Source of the DNA: an uncultured Pirellulales bacterium
GTDB taxonomy: Bacteria; Planctomycetota; Phycisphaerae; Sedimentisphaerales; Anaerobacaceae
Length of the DNA: 64,000 nucleotides
Direction of reading: 5' to 3'
Assembly: GCA_964494325.1 (NCBI GenBank)
Contig: CAZBTJ010000008.1
Span: 2,234 to 66,233 of the forward strand
Shown: positions 24,005 to 56,345 of the stretch, piece by piece
Numbering within the stretch: position 1 is the stretch's first letter
Layout of the letters: the number at the start of each line of letters is the position of its first letter
Position numbers and translations under genes: made by a program
The notes under the pieces: model-generated
The model's database searches: none
Seen by the model: the letters and a program-made list of their open reading frames with translations, nothing else
What the model was told of the DNA's origin: nothing

Positions 24005-24679
24005 ATGTCAAACGGGAGTATTCATGTTATGCTAGACGGTTTATTTGAGAATAATCGGGCGTGGGCCGAAAGAATGAATCGAGAGAATCCAGGCCTATTT
24101 GAACGCCTGGCTCTTCAACAGGCACCCCAGTATCTCTGGATCGGTTGCGCAGACAGCCGTGTGCCAGCCAGCCAGATCCTGGGCGTCGGCCCGGGTGAAC
24201 TCTTTGTCCACAGGAACATCGGCAATACAGTGGTTCATACGGATCTGAATTGCCTGTCCGTGCTCCAATACGCCGTAGACATACTCAAGATCAAAGACGT
24301 GATGGTCTGTGGCCACTATGAATGCGGCGGTATCAGGGCCGCTTTGAACGGTCATCGTTATGGCCTCATCGACAACTGGCTCAGCCACATTCGCGAGGTC
24401 TTCACAAAACATAAATCCCTGCTCACCCCTCTGTCCCCGGACAAACAAATTGAACGCATGTGCGAGTTGAACGTGGCGGAACAAGTGCTCAATGTCTGCC
24501 AAAGCAGTGTCATGGCCGATGTGTGGCGGCGCGGCGAAGAAATCTGTGTGCATGGTCTGATCTATAGTATCCGAGATGGACTGATCAATGCCCCTATGCT
24601 CTCTGTCAAAAACCTGGAGGAGACCCAGGAAGCATACAACAACGCCATTGAGATCATCACTCTGAAATGCCAGCATTAA
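24005..24679 (+). CDS. Beta-class carbonic anhydrase
   Basis: Zinc-ligand motifs CADSRVPASQILG and VCGHYECGG. Length (224 aa) fits the Can/CynT type. Confidence 0.9.
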   Translation: MSNGSIHVMLDGLFENNRAWAERMNRENPGLFERLALQQAPQYLWIGCADSRVPASQILGVGPGELFVHRNIGNTVVHTDLNCLSVLQYAVDILKIKDVMVCGHYECGGIRAALNGHRYGLIDNWLSHIREVFTKHKSLLTPLSPDKQIERMCELNVAEQVLNVCQSSVMADVWRRGEEICVHGLIYSIRDGLINAPMLSVKNLEETQEAYNNAIEIITLKCQH

Positions 24680-25449
24680 TCGATTCGTCCCAACAAACGA
24701 AGCAATCCGTCCAGGAGCGTCAGGGGATGTGGTGGACAGCCAGGTACATAGAGATCCACGGGAATCCATCCTTCTACGCCGTTATAAACTTCTGGATGTT
24801 CCACAAATAGTCCACCACTAATCGCACAGGCCCCCACGGCAATCACCACCTTGGGACTGGGCACGGCCTCGTATGTCTTGATCAGGGCCTCTCGCATATT
24901 CTCCGTGACCGGACCGGTCACCAACAAACCGTCTGCATGACGTGGCGACGCGACAAACTCGATACCAAAGCGTCCCATGTCCCACGCCAGGGTGCCAAGA
25001 ACATTGGCATCCGCTTCGCAGGCATTGCAGCCGCCTGCGGAGACCTGACGAAGTTTCAAGGACCGACCAAATACACGTTGAATCAAGCCATCGTGAACGC
25101 TGGCACAGGCCTCAGACGTCCGATCAACCACCAGCGACTGACGATCTGACACAGCCAGTTGGTGATCCCGCTCAAACCGGATGATCCCGGCAGGACACGC
25201 AGACTCGCAGGCCCCGCAAAATAGACAACGCCCCAGATCCACACACACATGGCGATGATCGCCCTGGCCCGATATGTCAATGGCCCCGGTGGGACAGACC
25301 TCGACACAGGCCGAACAACTCGACACACAGGCCATGGGCTGGATGACTGGCCTGCCTTGAAACCGATCCGGCAGGGTCGGACTTGGCCCATCTGGATAAC
25401 TCAGGGTCTGGTACTTTTGTTGGAATCGTGCTCGCAATATATCAAACAT
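24676..25449 (-). CDS. Fusion of a 2x[4Fe-4S] ferredoxin (HycF/NuoI-like) with a NuoB/HycG-like small subunit
   Basis: N-terminal CSACVEVCPTGAI and CLFCGACESACPAGII. C-terminal NuoB-type cluster ligands GGCNACE, VGACAISGG, VPGCPPHP. Confidence 0.8.
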   Translation of the reverse strand: MFDILRARFQQKYQTLSYPDGPSPTLPDRFQGRPVIQPMACVSSCSACVEVCPTGAIDISGQGDHRHVCVDLGRCLFCGACESACPAGIIRFERDHQLAVSDRQSLVVDRTSEACASVHDGLIQRVFGRSLKLRQVSAGGCNACEADANVLGTLAWDMGRFGIEFVASPRHADGLLVTGPVTENMREALIKTYEAVPSPKVVIAVGACAISGGLFVEHPEVYNGVEGWIPVDLYVPGCPPHPLTLLDGLLRLLGRID

Positions 25450-25460
25450 GTGTCATCCTC

Positions 25461-26930
25461 TCATAAATCATGGCCACAATAGGATAGATTAAAGCTCTTG
25501 TTACACAGTGGAAAATCAGAGATTTGCTGATGACGCAGCGACAGAGCCAAACCAGACCAATTATGGAACGATGGGTCCACCACTTTATAGGCAGCCAGTT
25601 CGCCTTGCGCATCAGTCAAGGCCACGTGACAGATTTCGCCTCGCCAACCCTCGACCAGGGAGACTGACAACCGATCCCCGGCGCACGGTGTCATGGCTCG
25701 CATCACCGGCCCGGCAGGAAGAGAGGCCAACTGATCCTGAATGAACCGCATGGATCGCTTCGCCTCCAGCCATCGCACCATCGCCCTGGCATGCGCATCG
25801 CCTGCAGTACACACAGATACCGGCATCTGAGCCATGGCATACAAGCCGTATGGCAGGTCTCTTCGAACATCTTGCTCCAGGCCACAGGCACGGGCTGCCA
25901 CACCCACCAGACCAATCTCCACGGCCTGCTGTGGTGTCACAATTCCCACACCCTCCAGACGCGCCAGTACGGATGGGCTGTTAAACATCAACTCCACCGC
26001 TGACGTGACATCCTTCTCTACCCGGCCCAGACCCAGGTTGAGTCGCGATACACGTGTCTCATCCAGATCAAACCCCACACCCCCTGGGCGCACAAGCCCG
26101 CGTCCGAATCGGTTGCCGCACAGTTCCGCTGTCAGGTTGAGTACATCACCCCGAATCCGTCCACAGTAACTTTGCGTGGGTAAAAATCCCACGTCACCGG
26201 CCAGGGCCCCCAGGTCGCCGATGTGGTTGGCCAGACGTTCCAGCTCTGCAGCCACTGCACGAATGGCCTGGGCGCGGGCCGACACGGGCGTGTGACTAAT
26301 CGCCTCGACAAGACGGCTATAGGCCCCGGCGTGGCCAATGGTTGTGTCCCCGGCCAAGGTCTCCATCAGGTGGATACGTCCATTGATCGGCCCTGAGATT
26401 ATGCGGCATTCCACACCACGATGTTGATAGCCCAGCGAGATCTCCAGGTGCGTCACGGTTTCACCGTGACATTGAAATCGAAAATGGCCCGGCTCGATCA
26501 CGCCGGCATGCACCGGGCCGACTGCGACCTCATGGATCTCGGGTCCTGCCACCCGGAAAAAGTCCATCACGCCCACGTGTCCCGAAGAAAACCGCACCGG
26601 CTTGAGCCAGGGATGCCCCTGGGGCAGGATGTCCCATTGCTCATAGATCTCCCGCTCAAACAGGTGGACCTGGGGACACTCATTTGTCAGACTGGGATAG
26701 GTGGCCCCCACATCAGTCCAGACCAAGTCGAGTTTCCCGGCATGATCACGGGCCAGCACCACCAGGAGTCTGCGCGTGTCTGCCACAGGCACCACACATA
26801 GGCAAACCACCCTGGCACCGGCTGCCACGGCCCCGATCAAGGACCGACGAAACACGGCATACGACACCCGTGGAATATAAGTAACATCCACGACCAGGCC
26901 ATTGGTCAGGGTACAAAAAGTCGTACTCAT
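25461..26930 (-). CDS. NuoC+NuoD / HycE-like 'large subunit' lacking the canonical NiFe-binding cysteines
   Basis: Homology blocks AAELERLANHIGDLGALAGDVGF and DPSFHNWSGLALSL. Where the L1 motif is expected it reads METLAGDTTIGHAGAY; the C-terminus reads SDFPLCNKSFNLSYCGHDL. Start set to MSTTFCTL at 26930, where TGA and ATG share one nt with the upstream gene. Confidence 0.8.
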   Translation of the reverse strand: MSTTFCTLTNGLVVDVTYIPRVSYAVFRRSLIGAVAAGARVVCLCVVPVADTRRLLVVLARDHAGKLDLVWTDVGATYPSLTNECPQVHLFEREIYEQWDILPQGHPWLKPVRFSSGHVGVMDFFRVAGPEIHEVAVGPVHAGVIEPGHFRFQCHGETVTHLEISLGYQHRGVECRIISGPINGRIHLMETLAGDTTIGHAGAYSRLVEAISHTPVSARAQAIRAVAAELERLANHIGDLGALAGDVGFLPTQSYCGRIRGDVLNLTAELCGNRFGRGLVRPGGVGFDLDETRVSRLNLGLGRVEKDVTSAVELMFNSPSVLARLEGVGIVTPQQAVEIGLVGVAARACGLEQDVRRDLPYGLYAMAQMPVSVCTAGDAHARAMVRWLEAKRSMRFIQDQLASLPAGPVMRAMTPCAGDRLSVSLVEGWRGEICHVALTDAQGELAAYKVVDPSFHNWSGLALSLRHQQISDFPLCNKSFNLSYCGHDL

Positions 26931-28402
26931 CACAGCATCCCCCCACAGGTCGCGGCGGCGTGCAGAACCCGGTCCAGCCCCGCAGGGACCATCAGGCCCA
27001 ACCCCAAGACCACGGCCACCAGGGCCAATAGAGGCCACACCGAATCAGGAGGCTCTGTCTGCATGATCGTCTCAGACGGCGCCGGGCCAAAGACCATGGC
27101 CAGGACGGCACGCATCATCACCACAAACACCATCCCCAGACCCAGCAGATACAGTCCTGCCGAAATCCAGTGACCGGTCTGAACCGCGCCCTTTAGAATC
27201 GTGAGTTCGCTTAGGAACAGGCCAAAGGGAGGTGACCCAGTAATAGCCAGGATGCCGATGAGCCAAAACACGGCCGTGACAGGCAACCGCTTGATCAGTG
27301 CGCTGGTGCCCTGAATCTCCTTGGTCTGATACGCCGCCAGGATATTGCCCGCACACAGGAACAGCAGGGCCTTGGTCACCGAGTGATTGACCGTGTGCAA
27401 CATAGCCCCATAACCGGCCACTCCGCCCAGGCCCACACCCAGGGCGAGGATCCCCATGTGCTCCACACTGGAATAGGCCAGCATGCGTTTGTAATCAGTC
27501 TGCACGATCATCAGGGCTGCGGCCACACCAATGGAGAGCAAACCAAAGCCCACCAACAGATCACCACTGAACCGACCCAGATGGGCCGCCACCATGACCG
27601 AGTGACTTCGCAGGATGCCCATGAATGCACAGTTCAACAGGGCCCCGGACAACAGAGCCGAGACCGCAGAGGGGGCCTCACTGTGGGCGTCGGGGAGCCA
27701 GGTATGCATGGGGACCAGTCCCATCTTGGTGCCGTATCCCACCAGGCACAGGAGAAATCCGGCCTTGAGCCAGGTGGTATTGAGGGCCGGCGCATGTGAC
27801 AGGAGTGTTGACAGAGTCAAGTGTACCGTCTGCTCGGAGTGCGACGCAGCCACGGCAAAGAAAAAGTTACCCAACAGGGCCAGGGCAATACCGACCGAAC
27901 AGATCAACAGGTATTTCCAGGTCGCTTCCAGACTGCGATGATGCCGGTGAAATCCAATCAAGGGCGCACTGGCCAGGGTCGTAGCCTCCACAGCCATCCA
28001 CAACAGACCCAGGTGACGGCTCACCAGGACGAGTGTCATGGAGGCGAGAAACAACAACAGACACCCCACGAACCGGGCTTCAGGCGCATTGGAAAATAAT
28101 ACGCCCTCTTCGAAATCGCGTTCGACTCGGTGTACAGCTTCACGCCTGAGATAGCCCACACTATACACAGCCACCACCAGGAACAGGCCCGATGTCACGC
28201 TCAGAAACAATAGCGACAGCGCGTCGATGCCAAGCCAGGCATGGGCCTCTGGCGTAAGGGGCTGGGTCCAGACCCAACCGACCAGACCGGCATGCACGCT
28301 GGCCGTGACCACAAGCAGGATCGATCTCGCGACAAAGCCGCGTATGACCCAGCTCAGCAGTCCCGCCATGACGGGCATCAATATCATCATCCAGATGAGC
28401 AT
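26930..28402 (-). CDS. Antiporter-like membrane subunit (HyfF / NuoM-NuoN / MrpD family)
   Basis: 490 aa, about 14 TM helices, proton_antipo_M-like core (WLPDAHSEAPSAVSALLSGALLNCAF). Operon context. Confidence 0.8.
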   Translation of the reverse strand: MLIWMMILMPVMAGLLSWVIRGFVARSILLVVTASVHAGLVGWVWTQPLTPEAHAWLGIDALSLLFLSVTSGLFLVVAVYSVGYLRREAVHRVERDFEEGVLFSNAPEARFVGCLLLFLASMTLVLVSRHLGLLWMAVEATTLASAPLIGFHRHHRSLEATWKYLLICSVGIALALLGNFFFAVAASHSEQTVHLTLSTLLSHAPALNTTWLKAGFLLCLVGYGTKMGLVPMHTWLPDAHSEAPSAVSALLSGALLNCAFMGILRSHSVMVAAHLGRFSGDLLVGFGLLSIGVAAALMIVQTDYKRMLAYSSVEHMGILALGVGLGGVAGYGAMLHTVNHSVTKALLFLCAGNILAAYQTKEIQGTSALIKRLPVTAVFWLIGILAITGSPPFGLFLSELTILKGAVQTGHWISAGLYLLGLGMVFVVMMRAVLAMVFGPAPSETIMQTEPPDSVWPLLALVAVVLGLGLMVPAGLDRVLHAAATCGGML

Positions 28403-28403
28403 G

Positions 28404-29051
28404 TCAATCCCTCAAAACGGACAATTGGTCCGTATCAATATGGTCAAATTCCCGGTTGATGTGGTTGATCGTAATACCCATCACAAACACGCCCACCAAC
28501 ACATCCAGCAACACGCCCATCTCCACGAGTAGGGGTTCCTGCAACGCAAAGGCGATGCCAAAGGCCCAGATCCCATTCTCCATGACCAGATACCCGAGCA
28601 CCTGAGTGATCGCCTTTTTGCGTGATACAATTAGAAACAGACCCGTCACGATCGTGAACAAACCAGTGGCAATGAGCAGGGTCTGGCACGGCAACTCGGA
28701 CAGGGCCAAGCGGTCTGCCATAGAGAAACACACAGCCAGCATGGCCAGCCCGATCAGGCCGGACAGGGAGAATCCCACAAAGGGCACCACTTCCCGGCTG
28801 GTATTGCATTGCCGCAAAGAACGAAAGAGTAACCACGGCAGCAATCCGGCCTTGATAGCCACGCTAGACAAGACGATCAGGATCAACTCCACACCCAGGT
28901 CGCTGCCATGCTGCAAAAATGCAATCAATCCCAGGAGCACGGCCTGCTGAGCCACGGTCTGGATGCAGGTGCCCAATCGACTGGTGCACAGCAACCGCAG
29001 GTTTAACAGAATGACCAGTACAGCCGTAACATCCATCCAGGTCGCCATCAC
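28404..29051 (-). CDS. Small membrane subunit (HyfE-like)
   Basis: 215 aa, about 7 TM helices. Sits between the NuoH-like and HyfF-like genes as in hyf-type operons. The call rests mostly on context. Confidence 0.65.
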   Translation of the reverse strand: MMATWMDVTAVLVILLNLRLLCTSRLGTCIQTVAQQAVLLGLIAFLQHGSDLGVELILIVLSSVAIKAGLLPWLLFRSLRQCNTSREVVPFVGFSLSGLIGLAMLAVCFSMADRLALSELPCQTLLIATGLFTIVTGLFLIVSRKKAITQVLGYLVMENGIWAFGIAFALQEPLLVEMGVLLDVLVGVFVMGITINHINREFDHIDTDQLSVLRD

Positions 29052-29960
29052 TTACCTCATCACCAAGATCAAAGAAACAAGACTCAACACCAGACCAATG
29101 GACAGGAGTTGCGGCACATGCAGCAGACGCAGTCTCGCCATGGTCGACTCCATAATCCCCACCACCACGGCAATCACGCCGATACCCACCAACCCGATAA
29201 GCCCGTCCACCACGACCATCCCCGTGCGAATCGGAATCAGCACACCGACCAGCAAGGCACTGAAAATCCACAACTTGATTGCCGCGCCATACTGAATCAT
29301 GGCCAGGTCCGGCCCACTGTGATCCAGCACCATCACCTCGTGGATCATGGTTAACTCCAGGTGCGTGTTGGGATCATCCACCGGCATCCTGGCATTCTCC
29401 GCCAGAAGCACAATCATCATGACGGCCGAAACCAGGGGCAGGACCATAGGGGCTGTGCCCGCCATGGCCAGAGTGCCGTACATACCCTCCAAGGACAACT
29501 GCCCAGTCAATTTGCACAGAGCGGCCAGGGCCAGGATCAGGCTCGGCTCGGTCAGTGCAGAAAAGAAGACCTCCCTACTGGCACCCAACCCTTCAAAGGC
29601 AGAACCCGTATCCATGGCCGCCAAAACCGTCAGAAATCGACCCACTCCCAACAGATAGGCCATCAATAATAAGTCCCCTGAAAAACTCACGCAGGCCCCA
29701 AATCCTGTCAAGGGAACAAACAACAGGGCCATAACCACCGCAGCCAAGGTTCCCATGGGACCGATTCGAAAGACCCAAGTCGTGGTTCGGCTATACACCG
29801 CCCCCTTGCGCAGCAGTTTGAACAGGTCATAATACAACTGACACAAAGGCTGGCCCCGACGACCGGCAAACCGGGCCTTGACCCGATTGATGATACCCAG
29901 CAACAAGGGCGACAAGGTCATGGCGAGGAAAACGTGACTCAGACCCGTGACATAGTACAT
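29052..29960 (-). CDS. NuoH / HycD (HyfC)-like membrane subunit
   Basis: 302 aa, 8 TM helices. LGIINRVKARFAGRRGQPLCQLYYDLFKLLRKG matches the N-terminal pattern of HycD/NuoH proteins; AENARMPVDDPNTHLELTMIHE matches the conserved loop. Confidence 0.8.
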   Translation of the reverse strand: MYYVTGLSHVFLAMTLSPLLLGIINRVKARFAGRRGQPLCQLYYDLFKLLRKGAVYSRTTTWVFRIGPMGTLAAVVMALLFVPLTGFGACVSFSGDLLLMAYLLGVGRFLTVLAAMDTGSAFEGLGASREVFFSALTEPSLILALAALCKLTGQLSLEGMYGTLAMAGTAPMVLPLVSAVMMIVLLAENARMPVDDPNTHLELTMIHEVMVLDHSGPDLAMIQYGAAIKLWIFSALLVGVLIPIRTGMVVVDGLIGLVGIGVIAVVVGIMESTMARLRLLHVPQLLSIGLVLSLVSLILVMR

Positions 29961-29963
29961 CGT

Positions 29964-31952
29964 TTACCTCATCTTCCAAATAAACAAGACTAGAATCGTA
30001 ATTGCAATATAAAGGACATAGAGTTGGTTGCGCCCCTGTTGAATGCACCGAAGCATCCCTGCCAAACGTGCGACCAGAGCAAATAAAGGTCGATAGCCCC
30101 GCTCAAGAAAACAGTCCTTAATGTCAGTGTGCAATGAAGCCTGAATCGGGAATAATCCTTCCGGGTCACATCCATGCCGTTGCGGTCGAAAGAAGGCGTG
30201 AAACCATGCCACAACCGGCCATACAAACGATGAAGCCGTATATTGCATCCGTGCATTCGGGGCGGTGAAACCGCAGTCCCACGTGGGGGCCTGTCGAACC
30301 GTACGTTGTGACAGCAGACGCTGACGTATCCCAGCCAGCAGCCCGACCAAGCCTAAAAGCCCCACAGCAGCCAGGCTGATCCACGCCAAAGATCTAACCG
30401 GCAAGGCCGTGCCATCCAAAGCGACAGGATCAATCTGACCGGCCAACAAGGTCGCCATCACAGGCTTGATACCCTGCACCACAAACGGGCCAAGAAGCCC
30501 AACGGCAATGCACACCGCTGCCAACATCGCCAGAGGCCAGGTCATGGATCGCGGCGACTCATGCACAGAAGAAGCGGTCACTCTGGGCTCGCCCAGGAAA
30601 ATCACGGAAAAGGCCTTGGCAAAACAGGCCGCTGCCAACCCTCCAATCAGGGCCAGCCCCCCTGCAATCAGAACCCCCGCCCAGGCAGTATGGATACCGG
30701 AGGACGTCACCAGAGCAGAGAGTGCCCCCATATAAATCAGAAACTCACTGACAAATCCGTTCAATGGAGGAAGACCGGCAATGGCTGCCGAGCCCACTAG
30801 AAAGGTGGTACCTGTCACAGGCATGCGTTTGAGCAGGCCGCCAAGTCGATCAATTTCCAAGGTCCCGGTGGCATGTTGTATGCTACCGGCCCCAAGAAAC
30901 AATAAACTCTTGAAGATCGCATGATTGAATACATGCAAAAGCCCGCCGGCAAACCCCAGAATCGCCCAGGACAGATGGCCCGTACCAATCCCCAATACTC
31001 CCAGCCCCAGTCCCAGCGTAATGATACCGATATTTTCCACGCTATGATATGCCAACAGGCGCTTGAGATCGTGCTGCACCATGGCCAGCAAGACCCCCAG
31101 GATACCCGAGATCACACCCACTGCAATCAAAGTCCAGCCCCACCAAACCGCAGGGGCGCCTAGCAAAGTCAAGACGCGCAGCAGACCGTAGATCCCGGTC
31201 TTGATCATGACCCCACTCATCACAGCAGAGACGTGGGACGGTGCCGCCGGGTGAGCCAGAGGGAGCCACACATGCATGGGCATCAAACCCGCCTTTGTGC
31301 CGAACCCCACCAAGGCCAGGACAAACGCCCACCCCGCGATGGTCGGCGTGGCCGCAGCCATGGACTCAAAATCCAAAGAACCCTGTGTACCGGACAACAA
31401 CACAAACATGGCCAACAGGCAGGCTGTACCCAGGTGCGTTGCCACCAGATAAGTCCAGCCGGCCTCCACCACCTCCTGGCGTTCATGCTCGTAAATAACC
31501 AGAAAAAAGGAGGTCAGGGACATGCATTCCCAGGCCACCAGAAACAGCACCGCATTACTCGCGGTCACCACCAGCCACATACTGACCAACAGCCCGTTGA
31601 ACCAGAACCAACTCAGACCCAGATTTTTTCGTTTCGCATCATGCTTGAGGTAACCATAGCCATAGACCGATGCCACCAATGACACCACAGCAATCACCGC
31701 CACAAAAAAACCGGATAACGGATCCATGGCCAGTTGAAAAGCCCCCATGGGCACGGGCCAGGCCCAGCTCAAAGACCACGCTGAATGGATCATCCCATCC
31801 AGCCCTGAAACCAAAGCCATCCCACTTGCCAATACCGCAGTAGCCGCGCCCAACCCATGCGCCACGCCACGTCGCCCCAGACAAAGACACAAAAAACCAC
31901 CAACCCCACACACCGCCAGGGCCACCAAAAACACCGGATATCCCAAACTCAT
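29964..31952 (-). CDS. Large antiporter-like membrane subunit (HyfB / NuoL family)
   Basis: About 660 aa, more than 15 TM helices, proton_antipo_M core (HVWLPLAHPAAPSHVSAVMSGVMIKTGIYG). Start set to MSLGYPVF at 31952, which forms an ATGA overlap with the upstream EIIA gene stop. Confidence 0.8.
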   Translation of the reverse strand: MSLGYPVFLVALAVCGVGGFLCLCLGRRGVAHGLGAATAVLASGMALVSGLDGMIHSAWSLSWAWPVPMGAFQLAMDPLSGFFVAVIAVVSLVASVYGYGYLKHDAKRKNLGLSWFWFNGLLVSMWLVVTASNAVLFLVAWECMSLTSFFLVIYEHERQEVVEAGWTYLVATHLGTACLLAMFVLLSGTQGSLDFESMAAATPTIAGWAFVLALVGFGTKAGLMPMHVWLPLAHPAAPSHVSAVMSGVMIKTGIYGLLRVLTLLGAPAVWWGWTLIAVGVISGILGVLLAMVQHDLKRLLAYHSVENIGIITLGLGLGVLGIGTGHLSWAILGFAGGLLHVFNHAIFKSLLFLGAGSIQHATGTLEIDRLGGLLKRMPVTGTTFLVGSAAIAGLPPLNGFVSEFLIYMGALSALVTSSGIHTAWAGVLIAGGLALIGGLAAACFAKAFSVIFLGEPRVTASSVHESPRSMTWPLAMLAAVCIAVGLLGPFVVQGIKPVMATLLAGQIDPVALDGTALPVRSLAWISLAAVGLLGLVGLLAGIRQRLLSQRTVRQAPTWDCGFTAPNARMQYTASSFVWPVVAWFHAFFRPQRHGCDPEGLFPIQASLHTDIKDCFLERGYRPLFALVARLAGMLRCIQQGRNQLYVLYIAITILVLFIWKMR

Positions 31953-32638
31953 TTTGACGTACTGAGCGAGAGGCGTTCTTCCAGGCACTTGGCTTGGTCG
32001 AGGATTGCCTCACGCATCCCTTTCTCCAAAATGGCCTTGGAAAACTCCGGGTCCTGCAAACCAAAAGCAAGCCTGGACAACAGGCTCAGGTGGGCCTTGA
32101 CTGTGGGACTGACGATTGTGAATAGAATGTCCACAGGCTTGCCATCCAGGGCTCCGTATTCGACTGGCTCGTCTAGAAAACAGAGGGTCACTGCAGGCTT
32201 GGCAATATGTAAAACAATGGGATTTCGTGCGTGGGGAATGGCAATGCCTCCACCAATGGCTGTGGATCCCAAGGTTTCGCGAGCCAGCAAGACCTCATGC
32301 AGAAACTTCCGATCCACTTCATCAGGCAACGGCATAACTGCCACAACCCGGGCCAACACGGAAGCCTTGTCCTTGCCCCCCACACGGTAAAAAATGCCGC
32401 CCGATCCCAGTGCTTCGGACAGAGTCGGTACAGGCAACTCCTCATCATCCGATTCCACCAGGATCTGGGGCGACACCGCAATACGATGACTCGTAGCCCA
32501 ATCCAAAAGTTCTGACCGATTGAACCGATGCTGCCCACTCATCTTATAGACGGGCAGCTTGTCCTGAGCCACCCACCGATACACGGTCTTCTCAGATACA
32601 CCAAATAAGTGAGCGACATCGCGAACACCCAGTCTCAT
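31949..32638 (-). CDS. Excisionase/MerR-type HTH fused to a PTS EIIA(Ntr/Fru, type 2) domain; first gene of the complex operon
   Basis: HTH VRDVAHLFGVSEKTVYRWVAQDKLPVYKMSGQHRFNRSELLDWA. EIIA-2 phosphorylation-site region TAIGGGIAIPHARNP. Start chosen at ATG 32638, which has AAGGTGA 5 nt upstream. Confidence 0.75.
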   Translation of the reverse strand: MRLGVRDVAHLFGVSEKTVYRWVAQDKLPVYKMSGQHRFNRSELLDWATSHRIAVSPQILVESDDEELPVPTLSEALGSGGIFYRVGGKDKASVLARVVAVMPLPDEVDRKFLHEVLLARETLGSTAIGGGIAIPHARNPIVLHIAKPAVTLCFLDEPVEYGALDGKPVDILFTIVSPTVKAHLSLLSRLAFGLQDPEFSKAILEKGMREAILDQAKCLEERLSLSTSK

Positions 32639-32670
32639 ACAATCACCTTGGCCATAACTCCTCTTACTTA

Positions 32671-32700
32671 GACATTCTTGGACATTCGTAGACATTATGC
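32671..32700. promoter_or_regulatory. Three 10-bp-phased direct repeats (GACATTNNNN) in the leader/promoter region of the EIIA-complex operon
   Basis: gacattcttg gacattcgta gacattatgc, with copies starting at exactly 32671, 32681 and 32691, 33-62 nt upstream of the preferred start codon (32638). Confidence 0.5.
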
Positions 32701-32842
32701 CCAAACACTGCCCATAAAGTCAAGCGCCTGAGCACCAAAAAAGTAAAATTAAAGAGTTTTCCTACAGCCTGACCGCAAATACAGCTAAAATACCCCCCAG
32801 AAGTTAAACGAATCTAAAATCCAGAATCTAAAATCTAAAATG

Positions 32843-33229
32843 AAAAGAGTGGGTTGGGCGATCGCTGGTCACCATGGTGGCTGGAGGAAAGTCCGGGCAG
32901 GACAGGGCACGGTGGTGGCTAACGGCCACCGGGGGCAACCTCAGGGATAGTGCCACAGAAAATATACCGCCAATGGCCTTCGGGCACAGGTAAGGTTGAA
33001 ATGGTGCGGTAAGAGCGCACCGCAATCCTGGCAACAGGATTGGCAGGGTAAACCCCACCGCCTGCAATACCAAGCAGCTGGCCGAATCTTCGGATTCATG
33101 ACTCGGCCCGGGTCACAACAGCGGGTAGGTAGCTTCCCTTCGGGGAGAGCCGACTGGCAACAGTCGGTCCAGATAAATGATCGCCATCCCTTTGGGATAC
33201 AGGACCCGGCTTACAGACCCACTCTTTTC
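32843..33229 (+). ncRNA. rnpB: RNase P RNA, bacterial type A
   Basis: Universally conserved P4 strand GGAGGAAAGTCCGGGC (about 32887), GGTAAGAGCGCACC, GGGTAAACCCCACC, and 3' P4 strand ACAGGACCCGGCTTAC. P1 pairs aagagtgggt (5') with acccactctt (3'). Length about 387 nt. Confidence 0.95.
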
Positions 33230-33372
33230 ATTTTTGATTTTTGATGGCGGATTTTTGATTTGGGCTCTCGCCATTCAAAACAGCCATCTTTTTCTCCTTG
33301 ATTCTCATTTGCCCTTGTAGTCCATGCAGTCTATACTATTGGCTTTGATAAGGAATTCACTGGTTTCTGACA

Positions 33373-36300
33373 ATGAGCATAGCGTATCCAAAACATCTTC
33401 CTGAACCACCACAAGGCTTCCGGTGTTATCGGTCGAAGCGAGACGTAGTCCGGGACAGCACGTTGCTTCCTTATCAGCACCTATTGCTCCGGGCATGGAA
33501 GTCGATGAACCTCACCGCTGTCTTGGTACTTGACGGAATTCCCACAGTCTATGTGCGTGACGAGAAGCGTCCCCTCCGTCCTGAAGAAGCGGCTGCCGTG
33601 CACCAGAAGTTCTGGAACCAAGGCGTGGCAACTGTACTTCTGTTGCGTAATCCCGAGAAGGTACGCGTATTCTCGTCCATGACAAAACCGGTCAACCCGT
33701 CTGTTGCCAGTAAGGCAGACATTGAGGACCGTCTCGTGGAAACGATTAAACTCGCCACACAGGCAAGCTGGGCTGAGAAATTCTACATCCAGCTAGCAAC
33801 GGGCCAATACTACTCAGGAGAGAATGAGTCTAAATTCGATCCGCAGCAAGCCGTGGACGCGTACTTAATCGACAACCTTGGCGCAGTCCGTGATCAATTG
33901 ACCAAAGGAAACGCCTCCCTGAAGCCCTCTGTGGCTCACGCATTCCTTGGACGACTCTTGTTCACCTGCTACCTGTGCGACCGTGGCATCATTGAGTTGC
34001 AGAACTACTTCCCCAATCGTTCCTGGAAACGAATCCAGGACCTGCTCGTCGAGGACAAAAGCCATGACCCTCTCGCAGATCTCTATGACACGCTCTTCCC
34101 TGACCTGAAACGCGACTTCAACGGCAGCATGTTTGATGAAGACCTCGATAACGAACGCGATTTGATAAAAATCGACCACTTGCAGGCCGTTCGTCGCTTC
34201 CTGAACGGAGACGAAGTACGAAAAGGCCAGCGTTCGCTTGGCTTCTGGGCCTATGACTTTAAATTCATCCCTGTCGAGACCATCAGTGCCATCTACGAAG
34301 ATTTCCTCGAAAAGGAAGGTGGTTCTGAGAAACGCAAAAGTGGAGCTTACCATACGCCGAGATTCCTAGCAGAGATGACACTTGACCTCGCTCTGGAAGG
34401 TGTGCGTCCGCTACGTGGCAAGCAATATCTGGATCCGGCGGTAGGTTCCGGGATTTTCCTTGTACTCATCTTCAACCGTTTGGCCGCCGAATGGCGTACA
34501 GCTCTAAGGAACCAACCATCGCCCGAGCAACAGGCAAAGGACTTGCGTGGTCTGCTTGCCTCTCTCCGGGGTGTGGATAAGAATCTGACGGCATGCCGTA
34601 TTGCGTGCTTCAGCCTCTATCTTGCCTTCCTTGACCAGTTTGACCCACCTGACATACTGGCCTACATGAAGGCTACGGGCGAAAAGCTACCGAGCCTTCT
34701 TCAGTTCGCCAATGCCAAGAAGAAAACCCCTGACCTTCCAGTGGTTTGGGAAGAGGACTTTCTCGATTTAGCGCCACAATGGGAGGGCCAGTTTGACATC
34801 GTGATTGGTAATCCCCCCTGGGCGGGACGTGGCAGCAAGCAGATTGCACACAAGTTTATGGATGCCGCTCCAGACGTGCTGAATGATTCCGGTCATGCCT
34901 GTCTCTTGCTGCCCTCCAAGGTGTTCCTCAATCAGACCGATAAGTTTCAATCTCAATGGCTTCGGCGGGTGACCTTGGACAAGGTGGTACAGCTTGCTGA
35001 CTATCGTTTTATCCTGTTCAAAGAAGCCCTTTGTCCATGCAACATCGCAAGATTCACCAAGCAGCCTCCGGATATTGCCACGCATGAGATTGAATATGTG
35101 ACGCCCAAGGTATCCCGTGTGGATTTGCGGGATGGCGTGATTTCGGTCGCCCCACAAGACCGGAAATGGATTCCGCTTCGCCTCCTGCTGGGATCACCGG
35201 AACAAAAAGCAACAGCCATGATATGGAAGTCGCATCTCTGGGGCACCCGATGTGACTTGAAATTCCTCGACTATCTCTTTACACTGCCCAAGCTTAAGGA
35301 TTTGGTAGGTACTGTAAGAGAAGTAAAGCAGAGGCATAAGCGATGGTGTAAGGGACAAGGATTTCAGCCGTTGCGATTGGGGCAAAAGGCGAAGAAGCCT
35401 AAGGCACTCAGTTGGCCAATGACTGATCGGTTCGTCACACCTGAATTGATTAGTGATGTTTTTTCGCTGCCCAAGATACTTACGCACAAACTTGATGAAT
35501 ACCTCATAAAACGCGATTACTTAACTGATAAAGCACGTCGGTTGCCAGCTGAACGGATCTTTCAGTATCCACTCGTATTGTTGAACCAAGGATTCAGTAA
35601 CGCAGCCTTTTTCGACTATCGTGTTCGATTTCAGCACTCACTCCAATCAATTTCAGGGGCAATAGAAGACACCGAGAGTTTGCTTTTCTTAACCGCATTC
35701 CTCAAGTCGAAGCTTGCTCGCTACTTTGTATTTCACACTGCAGCAAACCTCGGAACGGAACGTGACAAAGTACATATGCCGGAAGTATTCCGCTTGCCTT
35801 TCTTCCTGCCGGATAATGAGGTGGCATGTCCCAATGCATCCGTCATTGTCTCAAAAGTCGCCACCAAAATTCGACGTCTAAAGAACGAAATAGAAGTGGA
35901 CGCGGAAAAGTTGGACAAGAAACTCCGGTCAACAGAATTTCGTCTTCGATCCGAGGACGAAGATACCGATGAAAAAGAACGTCGGAAATGGCTCGAACGA
36001 CAGCGAGAAAAGTCAAGAAAGCTCCAAGCGGCGTTGGAACCACTCATCTATGAGTACTTTGGCCTCAATGACCAGGAAATTGCCCTCATTGAAGATACCT
36101 GTAACATTTTCGATAAGAGCGACACACCAGGCTCACTTGAAGCAGCCAAGAACATTCCCACGCTTCAGCCACTTGATGCCACAGGTCTTGAATCCTACGC
36201 CAATATGCTCACCAAGATGCTCAATGAGTGGGCCAGCGGTTCATTACGTGTTTCCGCCTCCGGCGGCATGGACCACGAGCTGGGACTCGGCCTGATCGAA

Positions 36301-48873: not shown

Positions 48874-49184
48874 GCGGCGCCTCCCTTCTTATCTTTGCTC
48901 TTAAACATCTTGAGCATACGATCTGTCACAAGGTAGCCGCCCACAACATTGATCATGGCAAGCGCCACAGCCAGGGTCCCCAGGATAGTGACCACCAGGC
49001 CACTGCCTTCATGCCCCAGGGCCAGAAGTGCGCCCACAATGGTAATCCCAGAAATGGCATTTGACCCGGACATCAAGGGCGTATGCAACTGGGATGGTAC
49101 TTTTTTGATCAGCTCCACACCCAGAAGCATGGCCAGAATAAACACAAAGAATAACAGAGACATAGTCTGAGGTGTCAAGTTCAT
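48870..49184 (-). CDS. pntAB: NAD(P) transhydrogenase subunit alpha, part 2 (membrane)
   Basis: 104 aa, 3 TM helices. VPSQLHTPLMSGSNAISGITIVGA motif. 4-nt overlap with the pntB start. Confidence 0.85.
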   Translation of the reverse strand: MNLTPQTMSLLFFVFILAMLLGVELIKKVPSQLHTPLMSGSNAISGITIVGALLALGHEGSGLVVTILGTLAVALAMINVVGGYLVTDRMLKMFKSKDKKGGAA

Positions 49185-49291
49185 AGAGTGAACTCCTATT
49201 TCTAAAAAAGGTTCACGGTTCGCAGTTCCAGATTCACGGTTAAGTCAGAGCGCTGGTTTTTCCAGCCACCAACCGTGAGCAGTTACCCTTA

Positions 49292-56082: not shown

Positions 56083-56345
56083 ATGTCCGATTATGAACGA
56101 ACACACAAATATATCTGGCTGCTCATTCTGCTATTGATGACTGGCATGAGCGTGGTCGTTTGCCTCGCCACGTTCTTGCTTGATACGGCTGAGGTCAACG
56201 TGTCAGTCCAAGAACTGCTCAATAGCCCAGGGGCGGTGAATATGATGACCAGCATGCCCGAGGTCATAGCCGGCCTGCTCGGGATCACCATTTCCGTGGT
56301 GGCCATCATCGTAGAATTGGCAGCCATTATCTCGCGGCTGCTCAT
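56083..56345 (+). pseudogene. N-terminal fragment of a membrane protein (DUF2254-like?) truncated at the jetD stop
   Basis: MSDYERTHKYIWLLILLLMTGMSVVVCLATFLLD...GLLGITISVVAIIVELAA reads like a genuine TM N-terminus. From about 56345 the frame continues only as the antisense of jetD. Confidence 0.4.

What the first reader, a model, noticed from the sequence alone, without database searches (positions are those of the whole stretch)
24676..32638. Seven-gene, translationally coupled operon for a group-4-hydrogenase/complex-I-like membrane complex that is probably not a hydrogenase (Ehr-type)
Seven co-directional minus-strand genes are joined by overlaps or gaps of 11 nt or less (ATGA at 31949-31952; TGA/ATG sharing nt 26930). 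Their products are: an HTH-EIIA regulator; a HyfB/NuoL-like subunit; a NuoH/HycD-like subunit; a HyfE-like subunit; a HyfF/NuoM-like subunit; a NuoC-NuoD/HycE-like subunit; and a ferredoxin-NuoB/HycG fusion. This is the architecture of hydrogenase-4 / formate hydrogenlyase. However, the window contains no fdhF, no hyp maturation genes and no HycI protease, and the catalytic subunit lacks the NiFe ligands (separate finding). That fits the 'energy-converting hydrogenase related' (Ehr) class inferred from comparative genomics. To my knowledge its substrate and physiological role have not been established. This is the best candidate in the window for an uncharacterised energy-conversion system.
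Basis: partly seen in the sequence, partly recalled or inferred. Interest (0 to 1): 0.7.

Follow-up and report, generated by a model that had tools for sequence, protein, structure and literature searches.

The report
Ehr-type hydrogenase-like membrane complex operon
This is a real seven-gene operon for a widespread membrane complex that descends from hydrogen-producing enzymes, has lost the nickel-iron site, and still has no known job; here it comes with a dedicated, apparently self-controlling regulator that gives a way to find out when it is switched on.

Summary
Seven minus-strand genes (24676-32638) are joined by overlaps or gaps of at most 11 nt. They encode an HTH_17+EIIA protein, HyfB-, HyfC/NuoH-, HyfE- and HyfF-like membrane subunits, a NuoC-NuoD/HycE-like large subunit, and a NuoI/HycF+NuoB/HycG fusion.

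The large subunit has Ala, Thr, Ser and Gly at the four [NiFe] cysteine positions, and so do 80/80 relatives (A/S/G, T/S/A, S, G). 148 of the 150 nearest cluster representatives also lack the full set. It is an Ehr-type complex, a class known since 2005/2013 whose function is still unknown in papers up to 2026.

It is not a decayed relic. Three [4Fe-4S] cysteine sets, the beta1-beta2-loop Glu, the canopy Arg, the E-channel, the ND3-loop Cys and the Glu/Lys pairs of both antiporter-like subunits are conserved.

New here:
- The EIIA-HTH gene is a dedicated member of these operons across many phyla.
- It sits behind a conserved sigma70-like promoter whose -10/+1 region carries TGTCY direct repeats spaced 10 nt apart.

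The carbonic anhydrase is linked only in this narrow lineage. No hyp, hycI or fdhF was found nearby.

Best reading: a ferredoxin-fed, redox-driven ion pump with an unknown acceptor, repressed by a PTS-responsive regulator. Verdict: new member of a known kind, moderate interest.

The parts
32694..32723 (-). Sigma70-like promoter: -35 TTGACT (32723-32718), 18-nt spacer, -10 CATAAT (32699-32694)
   Evidence: This is the best promoter-like match on the minus strand of 24400-33300, 10 of 12 positions. The same layout, TTGAC(A) followed by a -10-like box that ends at the first TGTCY repeat, is seen in 30 of 47 homologous upstream regions. It is a consensus match only; no transcription start was measured.
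32667..32696 (-). Candidate operator: three direct repeats of a 10-nt unit (AATGTCTAcG AATGTCCAaG AATGTCTAaG). The first repeat overlaps the last base of the -10 box.
   Evidence: the repeat finder family D1 gives 3 copies with 10-nt spacing. TGTCYN5TGTCYN5TGTCY occurs once in the 64-kb window against 0.00 expected. Two or more phased TGTCY sites occur in 49/108 REG-upstream regions, against 32/2000 random segments and 5/108 on the opposite strand; the spacing is 10 nt in 50/56 cases. Binding by REG is inferred, not shown.
31949..32638 (-). REG: 229-aa HTH_17 (excisionase/MerR-like) + PTS EIIA-2 (PtsN-like) protein; candidate autoregulator of the operon
   Evidence: Pfam PF12728 51.8 bits and PF00359 82.8 bits. 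The closest solved structures are PtsN proteins, and the phospho-His motif GIAIPH(136)ARNP aligns with theirs. The His is invariant in alignment A2. An HyfB-like gene lies downstream in about 64 of 65 assessable metagenomic homologues.
29964..31952 (-). HyfB-like antiporter-like subunit (662 aa) with a C-terminal NuoA/ND3-like extension
   Evidence: NCBIfam NF005086 'hydrogenase 4 subunit B', 623 bits, below its 667-bit cutoff. 37% identity to E. coli HyfB. E142/K220/K251/H340/H344/K348/E403 and the ND3-loop Cys560 are conserved in 66-67 of 67 relatives.
29052..29960 (-). HyfC/HycD/NuoH-like membrane anchor subunit (302 aa)
   Evidence: PF00146 106.9 bits. 30% identity to HycD against 22% to NuoH. 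The HycD E-channel residues R108, E130, E138, E188, E202, E208 and F122 are conserved in 60-61 of 61 relatives.
28404..29051 (-). HyfE-like small membrane subunit (215 aa; NuoK-like C-terminal half)
   Evidence: NF008556 'hydrogenase 4 membrane subunit' 81.9 bits, below its cutoff; PF00420 26.0 bits, just below its 26.1-bit cutoff. Invariant charged residues are K67, R144, E158, E177 and D183.
26930..28402 (-). HyfF-like antiporter-like subunit (490 aa)
   Evidence: NF005044 'hydrogenase 4 subunit F' 372.7 bits, below its cutoff. 40% identity to E. coli HyfF. E139/K226/H336/H340/K344/E399 follow the same pattern as E. coli HyfF.
25461..26930 (-). EhrL: NuoC+NuoD/HycE-like large subunit (489 aa) without [NiFe] ligands
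   Evidence: PF00346 137.7 bits. Best solved relative is HycE 7z0s_E, by sequence (133 bits) and by fold (TMq 0.78). HycE C241/C244/C531/C534 align to A193/T196/S483/G486. E146, H200, R430, H236, E389 and R347 are retained. The canopy Asp becomes N481. The protein ends where HycI cuts HycE.
24676..25449 (-). EhrS: fusion of a NuoI/HycF-like 2x[4Fe-4S] domain and a NuoB/HycG-like proximal-cluster domain (257 aa)
   Evidence: PF12838 and PF01058. NF005012 NuoB 121 bits, above its 116-bit cutoff. All 12 cluster cysteines (C41/45/48/52, C75/78/81/85, C141/144/208/238) are conserved in at least 94% of 69 relatives. The proximal cluster has the hydrogenase-type CxxC spacing.
24613..24629 (-). Terminator-like hairpin plus T-run, 47 nt downstream of the EhrS stop codon and inside the 3' end of the convergent CA gene
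   Evidence: Pattern scan only. The number of such hits in the region is not above the shuffled expectation, so this is a weak candidate.
24005..24679 (+). Convergent beta-class carbonic anhydrase (Can-like) overlapping the operon's 3' end by 4 nt. This is a lineage-specific neighbour, not a family-wide partner.
   Evidence: PF00484 171 bits; NF007756 270.5 bits, above its 251-bit cutoff. The same convergent overlap is present in the 75%-identical relative L085, whose other flanks differ. It is absent from the other 80 genome loci.

Best explanation
**What it is.** The locus encodes an Ehr-type ('energy-converting hydrogenase related') complex. It is a six-protein, complex-I-like membrane enzyme that descends from Hyf/Hyc-type group 4 [NiFe]-hydrogenases and has no [NiFe] site.

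**Shown here.**
- The four metal-binding cysteines are replaced by small residues (Ala, Thr, Ser, Gly), and these replacements are themselves conserved.
- Three [4Fe-4S] cysteine sets are intact.
- The proton-delivery residues around the former active site are conserved (beta1-beta2-loop Glu and His, canopy Arg, His/Glu/Arg pathway).
- The HycD-type E-channel, the ND3-loop Cys and the Glu/Lys/His chains of both antiporter-like subunits are conserved across about 60-80 relatives from many phyla.

**Inferred mechanism.**
- A low-potential soluble donor, most likely ferredoxin, delivers electrons to the exposed 2x[4Fe-4S] domain of EhrS.
- The electrons pass to the proximal cluster and reduce and protonate a substrate in the remodelled pocket at the EhrL/EhrS/HyfC interface.
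- That reaction drives H+ (or Na+) translocation through HyfC, HyfE, HyfB and HyfF, or runs in reverse.
- The acceptor is not identified. Membrane quinone is the leading candidate, at about one chance in three.

**Regulation (inferred).** The first gene encodes a dedicated regulator with an excisionase/MerR-type HTH fused to a PtsN-like EIIA domain. It is read as a repressor that binds head-to-tail to two to four TGTCY repeats, spaced 10 nt apart, that cover the -10/+1 region of a strong sigma70-type promoter. Binding would be modulated by phosphorylation of His136 through the PTS (NPr/HPr). Expression of the pump would then follow the cell's PEP/pyruvate or carbon/nitrogen status.
For: - **Gene content and junctions:**
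- **Closest to Hyf/Hyc, not Nuo:**. Solved structures: HycE 133 bits > MbhL 119 > Nqo4 111 > MbsL 70. Fold match: HycE, TMq 0.78.
- **Ligand loss:**, in 80/80 relatives. 148 of the 150 nearest representatives lack the full Cys set.
- **Conserved Fe-S cysteines:**
- **Conserved coupling residues:** mapped from the FHL structure paper (PMC9474812) onto the family. Antiporter residues.
- **No electron-input partner nearby:** no conserved partner, maturase or FDH gene within +/-10 kb of 80 genome loci or +/-4 kb of 80 metagenome loci.
- **Family breadth:** at least 594 species.
- **Regulator linkage:** an EIIA-HTH-type gene is linked in about 40 of 52 assessable genome loci, 30 of them directly upstream on the same strand. 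About 64 of 65 metagenomic REG homologues have an HyfB-like gene downstream.
- **Phospho-His:** conserved.
- **Operator:**. Promoter.
- **From my own knowledge (not tested here):** excisionase-family and BldC-type HTH proteins bind direct repeats head-to-tail. NCBIfam gave an excisionase-domain hit above its cutoff and a BldC-family hit below its cutoff.
Against: - No activity, donor or acceptor has been shown for any Ehr complex.
- The quinone-binding Tyr and His of NuoD are not conserved; they align to G194 and I145/E146.
- Riflemargulisbacteria with Ehr reportedly lack quinone biosynthesis (PMC6349859). This weakens quinone as a universal acceptor.
- In Geobacter, Ehr proteins rise on formate (PMC7894505). 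That may point to an unlinked formate dehydrogenase as the donor rather than ferredoxin.
- The canopy Asp, described as strictly conserved in the whole superfamily, is Asn here. This could mean altered or absent proton-coupled chemistry.
- The AlphaFold model is unreliable exactly at the pocket: residues 110-167 and 469-489 have pLDDT below 50.
- REG binding to the repeats, its sign of action and its phosphorylation are all inferred. Only 45% of upstream regions match the strict repeat pattern, and about 12 of 52 genome loci have no REG gene.
Confidence: 0.6

Rival explanations
1. It is a genuine H2-evolving [NiFe]-hydrogenase (hydrogenase-4 / formate hydrogenlyase-2 type). Its ligands would have been missed through misalignment, and its maturation genes would lie elsewhere in the genome.
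For: NCBIfam names the membrane subunits 'hydrogenase 4 subunit B/F', and JGI annotators call homologues 'Ni,Fe-hydrogenase III large subunit'. The closest solved structure is HycE. The proton-donor Glu and the canopy Arg are retained.
Against: Three independent alignments (phmmer vs PDB, MAFFT) put Ala/Thr/Ser/Gly at the four Cys positions, in 80/80 relatives. All NCBIfam Hyf scores are below their curated cutoffs. The protein ends at the HycI cleavage position. No hyp, hycI or fdhF is present in the window or in about 160 related loci. HydDB classifies the equivalent Acidithiobacillus hyfBCEFGI large subunit as a non-hydrogenase (PMC7735108).
Confidence: 0.02
2. It is an evolutionary relic: a hydrogenase that lost its cofactor and is now non-functional and drifting. 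This was recently suggested for Geobacter KN400.
For: PMC13194489 calls Ehr 'already nonfunctional' and reports missense mutations accumulating in ehr genes during long-term electrode growth. Acidithiobacillus showed no Hyf-like proteins during growth on H2.
Against: All seven reading frames are intact and translationally coupled. The family occurs in at least 594 species, with 53-63% identity across phyla. The replaced ligand positions are themselves invariant, and so are the cluster cysteines and the proton-pathway residues. A dedicated regulator and operator are conserved. All subunits are detected, and vary with electron donor, in Geobacter proteomes.
Confidence: 0.03
3. It works with the adjacent beta-carbonic anhydrase as an energy-coupled CO2-hydration or inorganic-carbon uptake system. 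Analogies are cyanobacterial NDH-1MS/CupA and the DabAB pumps, where antiporter-like subunits power a carbonic anhydrase.
For: A Can-like beta-CA converges on the 3' end of the operon and overlaps it by 4 nt. The same arrangement is kept in a 75%-identical relative whose other flanks are different. Many Ehr-carrying organisms named in the literature are autotrophs, such as Cupriavidus, Acidithiobacillus, Nitrospira and Methylacidiphilum.
Against: The CA is on the opposite strand. It is absent from the flanks of the other 80 genome loci, apart from one weak hit. No conserved flank family exists at all. Conservation of the three Fe-S clusters argues for redox chemistry, which DAB-type pumps do not need.
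Confidence: 0.06
4. It reduces a soluble or sulfur-type acceptor at or near the proximal cluster, as the Pyrococcus MBS/Mbx complex does with polysulfide, rather than reducing quinone.
For: [quoted passage not shown] The quinone ligands are absent. Some Ehr-bearing lineages are reported to lack quinone synthesis.
Against: MbsL is the most distant of the solved relatives, at 70 bits against 133 for HycE. The operon has no Mrp-type MbsA-G module. Ehr occurs in many aerobes that have no obvious sulfur respiration.
Confidence: 0.12

Closest known systems
Ehr (Ech/energy-converting hydrogenase related) complex of Geobacter sulfurreducens, GSU0739-0745 (Coppi 2005; Marreiros et al. 2013; cited in PMC7894505, PMC6349859)
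   Same: The subunit set and order are the same: NuoL-like, NuoH-like, HyfE-like, NuoM-like, large subunit without CxxC motifs, small subunit. Geobacter argillaceus and Geomonas limicola loci are 54-55% identical in the large subunit. Function is unknown in both.
   Different: In the Geobacter argillaceus locus (L055) and a Geobacter MAG (L052), the EIIA-HTH gene and an extra HyfB-like gene sit divergently upstream, and a gap separates EhrL from EhrS. Here everything is one tightly coupled seven-gene unit with a single HyfB. The window's clade also carries a convergent beta-CA.
E. coli hydrogenase-4 (HyfABCDEFGHI) and formate hydrogenlyase-1 (Hyc; PDB 7Z0S)
   Same: These are the closest characterised or solved relatives of every subunit. 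They share the beta1-beta2 Glu, the canopy Arg, the E-channel, the ND3-loop Cys, the hydrogenase-type CxxC in the small subunit, and the HyfB/HyfF charged-residue pattern.
   Different: The locus has no [NiFe] cysteines, no C-terminal extension or protease, and no HyfA/HycB, HyfD, HyfJ, HyfR or FocB. There is no FdhF or hyp nearby. NuoI-like and NuoB-like subunits are fused. The canopy Asp is Asn. Regulation is by an EIIA-HTH protein instead of a sigma54 activator (FhlA/HyfR).
Respiratory complex I / ferredoxin-dependent NDH-1 (11-subunit core)
   Same: Homologues of NuoA (fused to HyfB), B, C, D, H, I, K and L/M/N are present. The canopy position is Asn-His, as in NDUFS2 (N185/H186). The overall logic of a redox-driven pump is the same.
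   Different: The quinone-ligand Tyr and His are absent, aligning to G194 and I145/E146. There is no NuoEFG. The large subunit matches NuoCD at only 23% identity.
Pyrococcus furiosus MBS/Mbx sulfane-sulfur reductase (PDB 6U8Y)
   Same: It is a hydrogenase-derived, non-hydrogenase member of the same superfamily that still pumps ions.
   Different: It is the weakest sequence match among the solved relatives, at 70 bits. MBS has a full Mrp module. Its substrate is known, whereas that of Ehr is not.
PtsN (EIIA-Ntr) and excisionase/BldC-type HTH proteins, for the regulator
   Same: The EIIA-2 fold matches, and the phospho-His motif GIAIPHxR aligns to solved PtsN structures. The HTH scores above the cutoff of the excisionase-family domain model TIGR01764. 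The direct-repeat operator fits head-to-tail binding, which I know from Xis and BldC; that parallel rests on my own knowledge and was not tested.
   Different: Scores are far below the PtsN equivalog cutoffs (65.5 against 138.7 bits). The two domains are fused in one protein. The gene is tied to Ehr operons rather than to rpoN.

Membership tests
[quoted passage not shown] | Large subunit homologous to group 4 [NiFe]-hydrogenase large subunits and NuoD | tested here: met
   PF00346 137.7 bits; HycE 7z0s_E E=1.1e-37; Foldseek TMq 0.78 to HycE.
[quoted passage not shown] | All or most of the four [NiFe]-binding cysteines are missing | tested here: met
   A193/T196/S483/G486 align to HycE C241/C244/C531/C534. 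The same holds in 80/80 relatives and in 148/150 nearest representatives.
[quoted passage not shown] | NuoB-type small subunit with an intact proximal [4Fe-4S] site, plus NuoH-like and Mrp/antiporter-like membrane subunits in one cluster | tested here: met
[quoted passage not shown] | Orthology with the founding Geobacter Ehr cluster | tested here: met
   Geobacter argillaceus, Geomonas limicola and Geobacteraceae MAG loci are 54-58% identical in EhrL and have the same core gene order. G. sulfurreducens itself was not retrieved.
Group 4 [NiFe]-hydrogenases (Hyf/Hyc/Ech/Mbh) | N-terminal RxCGxCxxxH and C-terminal DPCxxCxxR ligand motifs | tested here: not met
   The corresponding sequences are ETLAGDTTIGH and FNLSYCGHDL-end.
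Group 4 [NiFe]-hydrogenases (Hyf/Hyc/Ech/Mbh) | Hyp maturation genes (and, for the Hyc/Hyf type, a C-terminal extension cut by HycI) | tested here: inconclusive
   There is no C-terminal extension. No HypA-F, HycI or HycH homologue is present in the window or in about 160 related loci. The rest of the source genome could not be examined.
Group 4 [NiFe]-hydrogenases (Hyf/Hyc/Ech/Mbh) | H2 evolution or uptake activity | not testable with these tools
   Needs biochemistry.
Respiratory complex I / NDH-1 | Quinone-binding Tyr (Nqo4 Y87) and beta1-beta2-loop His (Nqo4 H38) in the NuoD homologue | tested here: not met
   These positions align to G194 and I145/E146 (phmmer alignment to 2fug_4; MAFFT).
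Respiratory complex I / NDH-1 | NADH-oxidising N-module (NuoEFG), or curated NuoD/NuoH equivalog scores | tested here: not met
   No NuoEFG in the operon or flanks. NuoD 193.5 bits against a 360-bit cutoff; NuoH 40 bits against 305.
MBS/Mbx sulfane-sulfur reductase | Mrp-type multi-subunit module (MbsA-G) and close similarity to MbsL | tested here: not met
   MbsL (6u8y_L) scores only 70 bits, the lowest of the solved relatives. The operon has no Mrp small subunits.
PTS EIIA-Ntr (PtsN) | EIIA-2 domain with the conserved phosphorylatable His | tested here: met
   PF00359 82.8 bits against a 27-bit cutoff. GIAIPH136 aligns to the PtsN GVAIPH motif. The His is invariant in 20 homologues.
PTS EIIA-Ntr (PtsN) | Stand-alone PtsN equivalog (curated score) and phosphotransfer from NPr | tested here: not met
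   TIGR01419 65.5 bits against 138.7; NF008145 55.7 against 221. The protein carries an extra N-terminal HTH. Phosphotransfer is not testable here.

The most novel reading that the evidence does not exclude
Ehr complexes in many bacterial phyla form one regulatory unit gated by the nitrogen/carbon-sensing PTS. A fused EIIA-HTH repressor sits on 10-nt-phased TGTCCA repeats over the promoter. The enzyme it controls uses the emptied [NiFe] pocket as a new, proton-coupled catalytic site, or a site for a new cofactor, acting on a substrate that is neither H+ nor a classically bound quinone, and it still drives ion pumping. The pocket is now lined by invariant small and polar residues: Ala/Gly/Asp/Thr/Thr, Asn, and Ser-Tyr-Cys-Gly-His-Asp-Leu at the C-terminus.
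Probability: 0.3. Interest if true: 0.75.

Novelty: new member of a known kind. Interest (0 to 1): 0.45.

Why it matters
Ehr complexes are among the most widespread members of the complex I / membrane-hydrogenase superfamily without an assigned reaction. This scan found relatives in at least 594 species-level genomes. They are often mis-annotated as 'hydrogenase 4' or 'formate hydrogenlyase', which distorts metabolic reconstructions of H2 and formate metabolism.

This locus is an ordinary member of the class. The comparative work it prompted gives three practical handles on the open question.
- The complex is under strong purifying selection at the former active site and at every known coupling element. 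It should therefore be treated as a working redox pump, not a relic.
- A dedicated PtsN-like EIIA-HTH regulator travels with the operon. This points to the physiological signal to test: the PEP/pyruvate ratio or the 2-oxoglutarate/glutamine ratio, acting through the PTS.
- A conserved promoter-operator architecture can be used for footprinting, reporter fusions and regulon searches.

Tried and rejected
- **Carbonic anhydrase as a general partner: rejected.** phmmer of the window's CA against ORFs of 80 genome loci found only one weak hit. It is kept only in the 75%-identical relative.
- **A conserved electron-input or maturation partner in the flanks: none found.** All-against-all clustering of 5100 flank ORFs gave only off-frame artefacts of the core genes and a scattered sigma54-type regulator in 12 loci. 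phmmer with E. coli HypA-F, HycI, HycH, FdhF and FhlA gave nothing relevant; the HycB and HydN hits are just the ferredoxin domain of EhrS.
- **Organism name: not obtained.** Exact-sequence cluster look-up returned no names, and the only contig read for the window's protein is an unnamed Logan assembly. The source taxon stays unassigned.
- **AlphaFold model of EhrL, to inspect the pocket: unusable.** Only the overall fold match was used.
- **Mapping NuoK Glu36/Glu72 onto HyfE: ambiguous.** The alignment is unreliable, so I make no claim beyond listing the invariant charged residues.
- **An inverted TGGRCA half-site in the promoter spacer: not general.** It looked attractive by eye but is present in only 8 of 47 regions.
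- **Literature searches.** Searches for locus tags of the Cupriavidus necator cluster, and for a functional or structural study of Ehr or Hyf-like non-hydrogenases since 2019, found none. The Geobacter tag search found only papers that list the cluster. No separate search for the EIIA-HTH link was run; none of the papers retrieved mentions it.
- **'DPSFHNW' as the C-terminal ligand motif: rejected.** It is the RxPSFxN motif; the true equivalent is the extreme C-terminus.

Full report
**1. Observation**

The region 24676-32638 carries seven co-directional minus-strand reading frames. Reading the junctions gives, in operon order:
- an ATGA stop/start overlap between gene 1 and gene 2 (31949-31952);
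- gaps of 3, 0 and 1 nt;
- a TGA/ATG overlap sharing nt 26930;
- an 11-nt gap before the last gene.

| Gene | Coordinates (minus strand) | Pfam / NCBIfam assignment |
|---|---|---|
| 1 | 31949-32638 | HTH_17 + PTS_EIIA_2 |
| 2 | 29964-31952 | HyfB-like; Proton_antipo_M; 'hydrogenase 4 subunit B', 623 bits |
| 3 | 29052-29960 | NADHdh / HycD-like |
| 4 | 28404-29051 | HyfE-like |
| 5 | 26930-28402 | HyfF-like |
| 6 | 25461-26930 | Complex1_49kDa with a weak Complex1_30kDa N-terminal part |
| 7 | 24676-25449 | 2x[4Fe-4S] NuoI/HycF-like domain fused to Oxidored_q6 (NuoB/HycG) |

BLASTP against E. coli proteins shows each subunit is closer to Hyf/Hyc than to Nuo. Examples: HyfB 37% identity, HyfF 40%, large subunit 28% to HycE against 23% to NuoCD.

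A convergent Can-type beta-carbonic anhydrase (24005-24679, +) overlaps the 3' end by 4 nt. An RNase P RNA gene lies just upstream (32846-33229, +).

**2. Not a hydrogenase**

Three alignments agree: phmmer against PDB chains, and MAFFT with E. coli HycE, HyfG and NuoCD. The HycE ligands C241, C244, C531 and C534 correspond to A193, T196, S483 and G486.

The protein ends (…SYCGHDL) at the position where HycI cleaves HycE, so no processing protease is needed. 'DPSFHNW' is the RxPSFxN motif shared with NuoD, not the ligand motif.

In 80 relatives from species-level genomes, the four positions are A/S/G, T/S/A, S (80/80) and G (80/80).

An exhaustive HMMER search of 1.84 billion cluster representatives gave 150 best hits (250-598 bits). 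148 of them lack the full cysteine set. The two with all four cysteines score 258-266 bits, at 37-39% identity.

All NCBIfam 'hydrogenase 4' and NuoD/NuoH scores fall below their curated cutoffs.

**3. Not a relic**

Alignment A1 of 20 homologues from different phyla has 65% mean column identity. The segments that replace the [NiFe] motifs are among the most conserved: ETLAGDTT[IV]GH and the C-terminal SDFPLCNKSFNLSYCGHDL.

I took the residues highlighted in the E. coli FHL structure paper (PMC9474812) and checked them across the family.

| Element | Residues in the window proteins | Conservation in relatives |
|---|---|---|
| beta1-beta2 loop (EhrL) | H141, E146 (HycE H188, E193) | 80/80 |
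| His after the first motif (EhrL) | H200 | 80/80 |
| Canopy Arg (EhrL) | R430 | 80/80 |
| Proton-pathway residues (EhrL) | H236, E389, R347 | 77-80/80 |
| E-channel (HyfC; HycD equivalents) | R108, E130, E138, E188, E202, E208, F122 | 60-61/61 |
| ND3-loop Cys (HyfB) | C560 | 67/67 |

Both antiporter-like subunits keep the TM5 Glu, TM7 Lys, central His/Lys and TM12 Glu. This includes the TM7 Lys that HycC has lost.

All twelve cysteines for three [4Fe-4S] clusters in EhrS are conserved in at least 94% of 69 relatives. The proximal cluster has the hydrogenase-type CxxC spacing.

One notable change: the canopy Asp, described as strictly conserved in the whole superfamily, is Asn in 77/80. The quinone-binding Tyr and His of NuoD are not present; they align to G194 and I145/E146.

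**4. Family and context**

A pattern scan of one genome per species found at least 594 species with a relative. The best 80 loci come from Planctomycetota, Verrucomicrobiota, Kiritimatiellae, Acidobacteriota, Desulfuromonadales/Geobacter, Spirochaetota, Riflebacteria, Hydrogenedentota, Elusimicrobia, Myxococcota and others.

The core order is conserved: HyfB (sometimes two copies), HyfC, HyfE, HyfF, EhrL, EhrS.

Clustering of 5100 flank ORFs found no other recurrent family. No HypA-F, HycI, HycH or FdhF homologue occurs in the window or in about 160 related loci.

The carbonic anhydrase is absent from those 80 loci. It is present, in the same convergent overlapping position, in a 75%-identical relative whose other flanks differ (L085). 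I read it as a lineage-specific neighbour.

**5. The regulator**

The HTH_17+EIIA gene is linked in about 40 of 52 assessable genome loci, and lies directly upstream on the same strand in 30 of them.

The reverse test used an alignment of REG homologues (A2) to scan metagenome contigs with no reference to neighbours. It returned 567 relatives. Among the best 80, about 64 of 65 with enough downstream sequence are followed by an HyfB-like gene. REG is therefore dedicated to these operons.

Its EIIA domain is most similar to solved PtsN proteins. The phosphorylatable His (GIAIPH136) is invariant.

**6. Promoter and operator**

Upstream of REG the best sigma70-like site is TTGACT-18-CATAAT at 32723-32694. 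Starting at the last base of the -10 box there are three direct 10-nt repeats: AATGTCTAcG AATGTCCAaG AATGTCTAaG. The triple pattern occurs once in the window, against 0.00 expected.

Comparative evidence for the repeats:
- Across 108 REG-upstream regions from genomes and metagenomes, 49 carry at least two phased TGTCY sites. The control rates are 32/2000 for random 200-nt segments and 5/108 on the opposite strand.
- The spacing is exactly 10 nt in 50 of 56 cases.
- The consensus is a.aWTGTCCAaa, at a median of 45 nt before the start codon.
- In 30 of 47 such regions, a TTGAC -35 box sits at the right distance for the first repeat to abut the -10 box.

A near-consensus promoter with repeats over -10/+1 is the classical arrangement for a repressor. 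Direct repeats one helical turn apart fit head-to-tail binding. I know that mode from excisionase and BldC-type HTH proteins (my own knowledge). NCBIfam gave an excisionase-domain hit above its cutoff and a BldC hit below its cutoff. Binding, the sign of regulation and phosphorylation are inferences.

**7. Literature**

The class was named Ehr in Geobacter (Coppi 2005) and generalised by Marreiros et al. 2013, as cited in PMC6349859 and PMC7894505.

- Papers from 2019 to 2026 repeat that the proteins lack the CxxC motifs and that the function is unknown.
- One 2026 paper calls Ehr non-functional.
- Geobacter proteomics found all Ehr subunits more abundant on formate.
- The same six genes are listed as 'hyfBCEFGI' in Cupriavidus, Desulfobacterium, Nitrospira and Acidithiobacillus genome papers.
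- None of the papers I retrieved mentions the EIIA-HTH gene or the operator. I did not run a separate search for that link.
- No Ehr structure is in the PDB copy; the best fold match is HycE.

**8. Mechanism: shown and inferred**

*Shown.* The composition; the loss of the [NiFe] ligands; the conservation of the Fe-S sites and of all recognised coupling and proton-pathway residues; the absence of a linked donor module or maturation genes; the dedicated regulator and conserved operator.

*Inferred.* Electrons enter from a soluble low-potential carrier (ferredoxin) at the NuoI-like domain, as in Ech and MBH-type enzymes. They reach the proximal cluster and reduce a substrate, which is protonated via E146/R430 in the remodelled pocket. 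This drives ion translocation through HyfC, HyfE, HyfB and HyfF.

The acceptor is unknown. Quinone is the simplest candidate, but the NuoD ligands are missing, and some Ehr-bearing lineages are reported to lack quinone synthesis. Expression is inferred to be repressed by REG and released according to the phosphorylation state of His136.

**9. Rivals**

- A true hydrogenase is essentially excluded by the sequence.
- A decaying relic is contradicted by the conservation pattern.
- A carbonic-anhydrase-coupled carbon pump is supported only by a lineage-specific neighbour on the opposite strand.
- An MBS-like soluble or sulfur acceptor remains possible.

**10. Verdict**

The locus is a new member of a known but uncharacterised kind. 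Its value lies in the comparative results it prompted: the conserved pocket, the intact coupling machinery, and the dedicated EIIA-HTH regulator with its operator. These make the open question of Ehr function more directly testable.

**11. Limits**

- The source organism was not identified.
- The rest of the genome could not be searched for hyp or PTS genes.
- The structure model is unreliable at the pocket.
- All regulatory and catalytic statements beyond sequence conservation are inferences.

Noticed in passing
window 32846-33229 (+), with flanks 32811-32854 and 33217-33260: A bacterial class A RNase P RNA gene (297.5 bits) lies directly upstream of the operon promoter. It is bracketed by a 44-nt, 86%-complementary inverted repeat made of AT-rich short repeats (AATCTAAAAT / ATTTTTGATT), which would extend the P1 stem far beyond the Rfam model.
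   Followed up: partly
window 32640-32662 (-): A six-codon mini-ORF (ATGGCCAAGGTGATTGTATGA, MAKVIV*) sits in the 5' leader. It has a strong AAGAGGAG Shine-Dalgarno, and its stop overlaps the REG start codon (ATGA). It could be a leader peptide or chance. It was not checked in homologues.
   Followed up: no
window 26000-32000: The operon has higher G+C (0.555-0.60) than its surroundings (about 0.50) and a very strong AT skew (0.2-0.32). This may reflect membrane-protein codon composition on the minus strand, or acquisition by horizontal transfer.
   Followed up: no
window 56342-61751 (-) and 62009-62707 (-): A Wadjet/MksBEF-like anti-plasmid cluster: JetD_C domain at 56342-57223, a 951-aa JetC-like ORF at 57220-60075, MksE at 59945-60523, and a 411-aa ORF at 60516-61751. 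It is followed by a Schlafen/AlbA_2-domain gene.
   Followed up: no
window 33373-36561 (+): A 1062-aa Eco57I-type (type IIG-like) restriction-modification methylase/endonuclease fusion lies just beyond the RNase P RNA gene.
   Followed up: no
window 37403-42907 (-): A giant 1834-aa protein whose only Pfam match is a starch-synthase catalytic domain (Glyco_transf_5) at residues 1148-1408. The rest is unannotated.
   Followed up: no
window 3087-4562 (+): A dnaA gene is present, so the window may lie near the chromosomal origin. However, the cumulative GC skew shows no turning point anywhere in the window.
   Followed up: no
window 47464-50434 (-): A proton-translocating transhydrogenase (PntB at 47464-48873, PntA at 49292-50434) lies 15 kb from the operon. 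It is another pmf-linked redox enzyme in the neighbourhood, with no evidence of linkage to Ehr.
   Followed up: no
L036 13239-20566 (Geobacteraceae MAG): A second, paralogous Ehr-like six-gene cluster lies immediately downstream of the first. Its large subunit (265 bits to the window's) also lacks the [NiFe] cysteines (SGDTTVAH; …CNKSFNASYSGHDL), and it lacks the Cys485 equivalent. So at least two Ehr subfamilies coexist in one genome.
   Followed up: partly
L021, L022, L034, L041, L042, L049, L053 and other related loci: Fifteen of the 81 loci scanned carry two HyfB-like genes, and one (L036) carries three. A few loci carry two tandem or divergent EIIA-HTH genes (L021, L053, L158). In the Geobacter argillaceus locus (L055) and two Geobacter-lineage MAGs (L036, L052), the REG + HyfB2 pair is divergent from the core operon.
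   Followed up: partly
representatives P0133, P0137, P0149, P0156, P0168, P0173, P0187: A subset of cysteine-poor Ehr-like large subunits keeps only the first ligand cysteine (C-G-D-[ST]…) together with the Cys485 equivalent. These may be intermediate forms between hydrogenases and Ehr.
   Followed up: no
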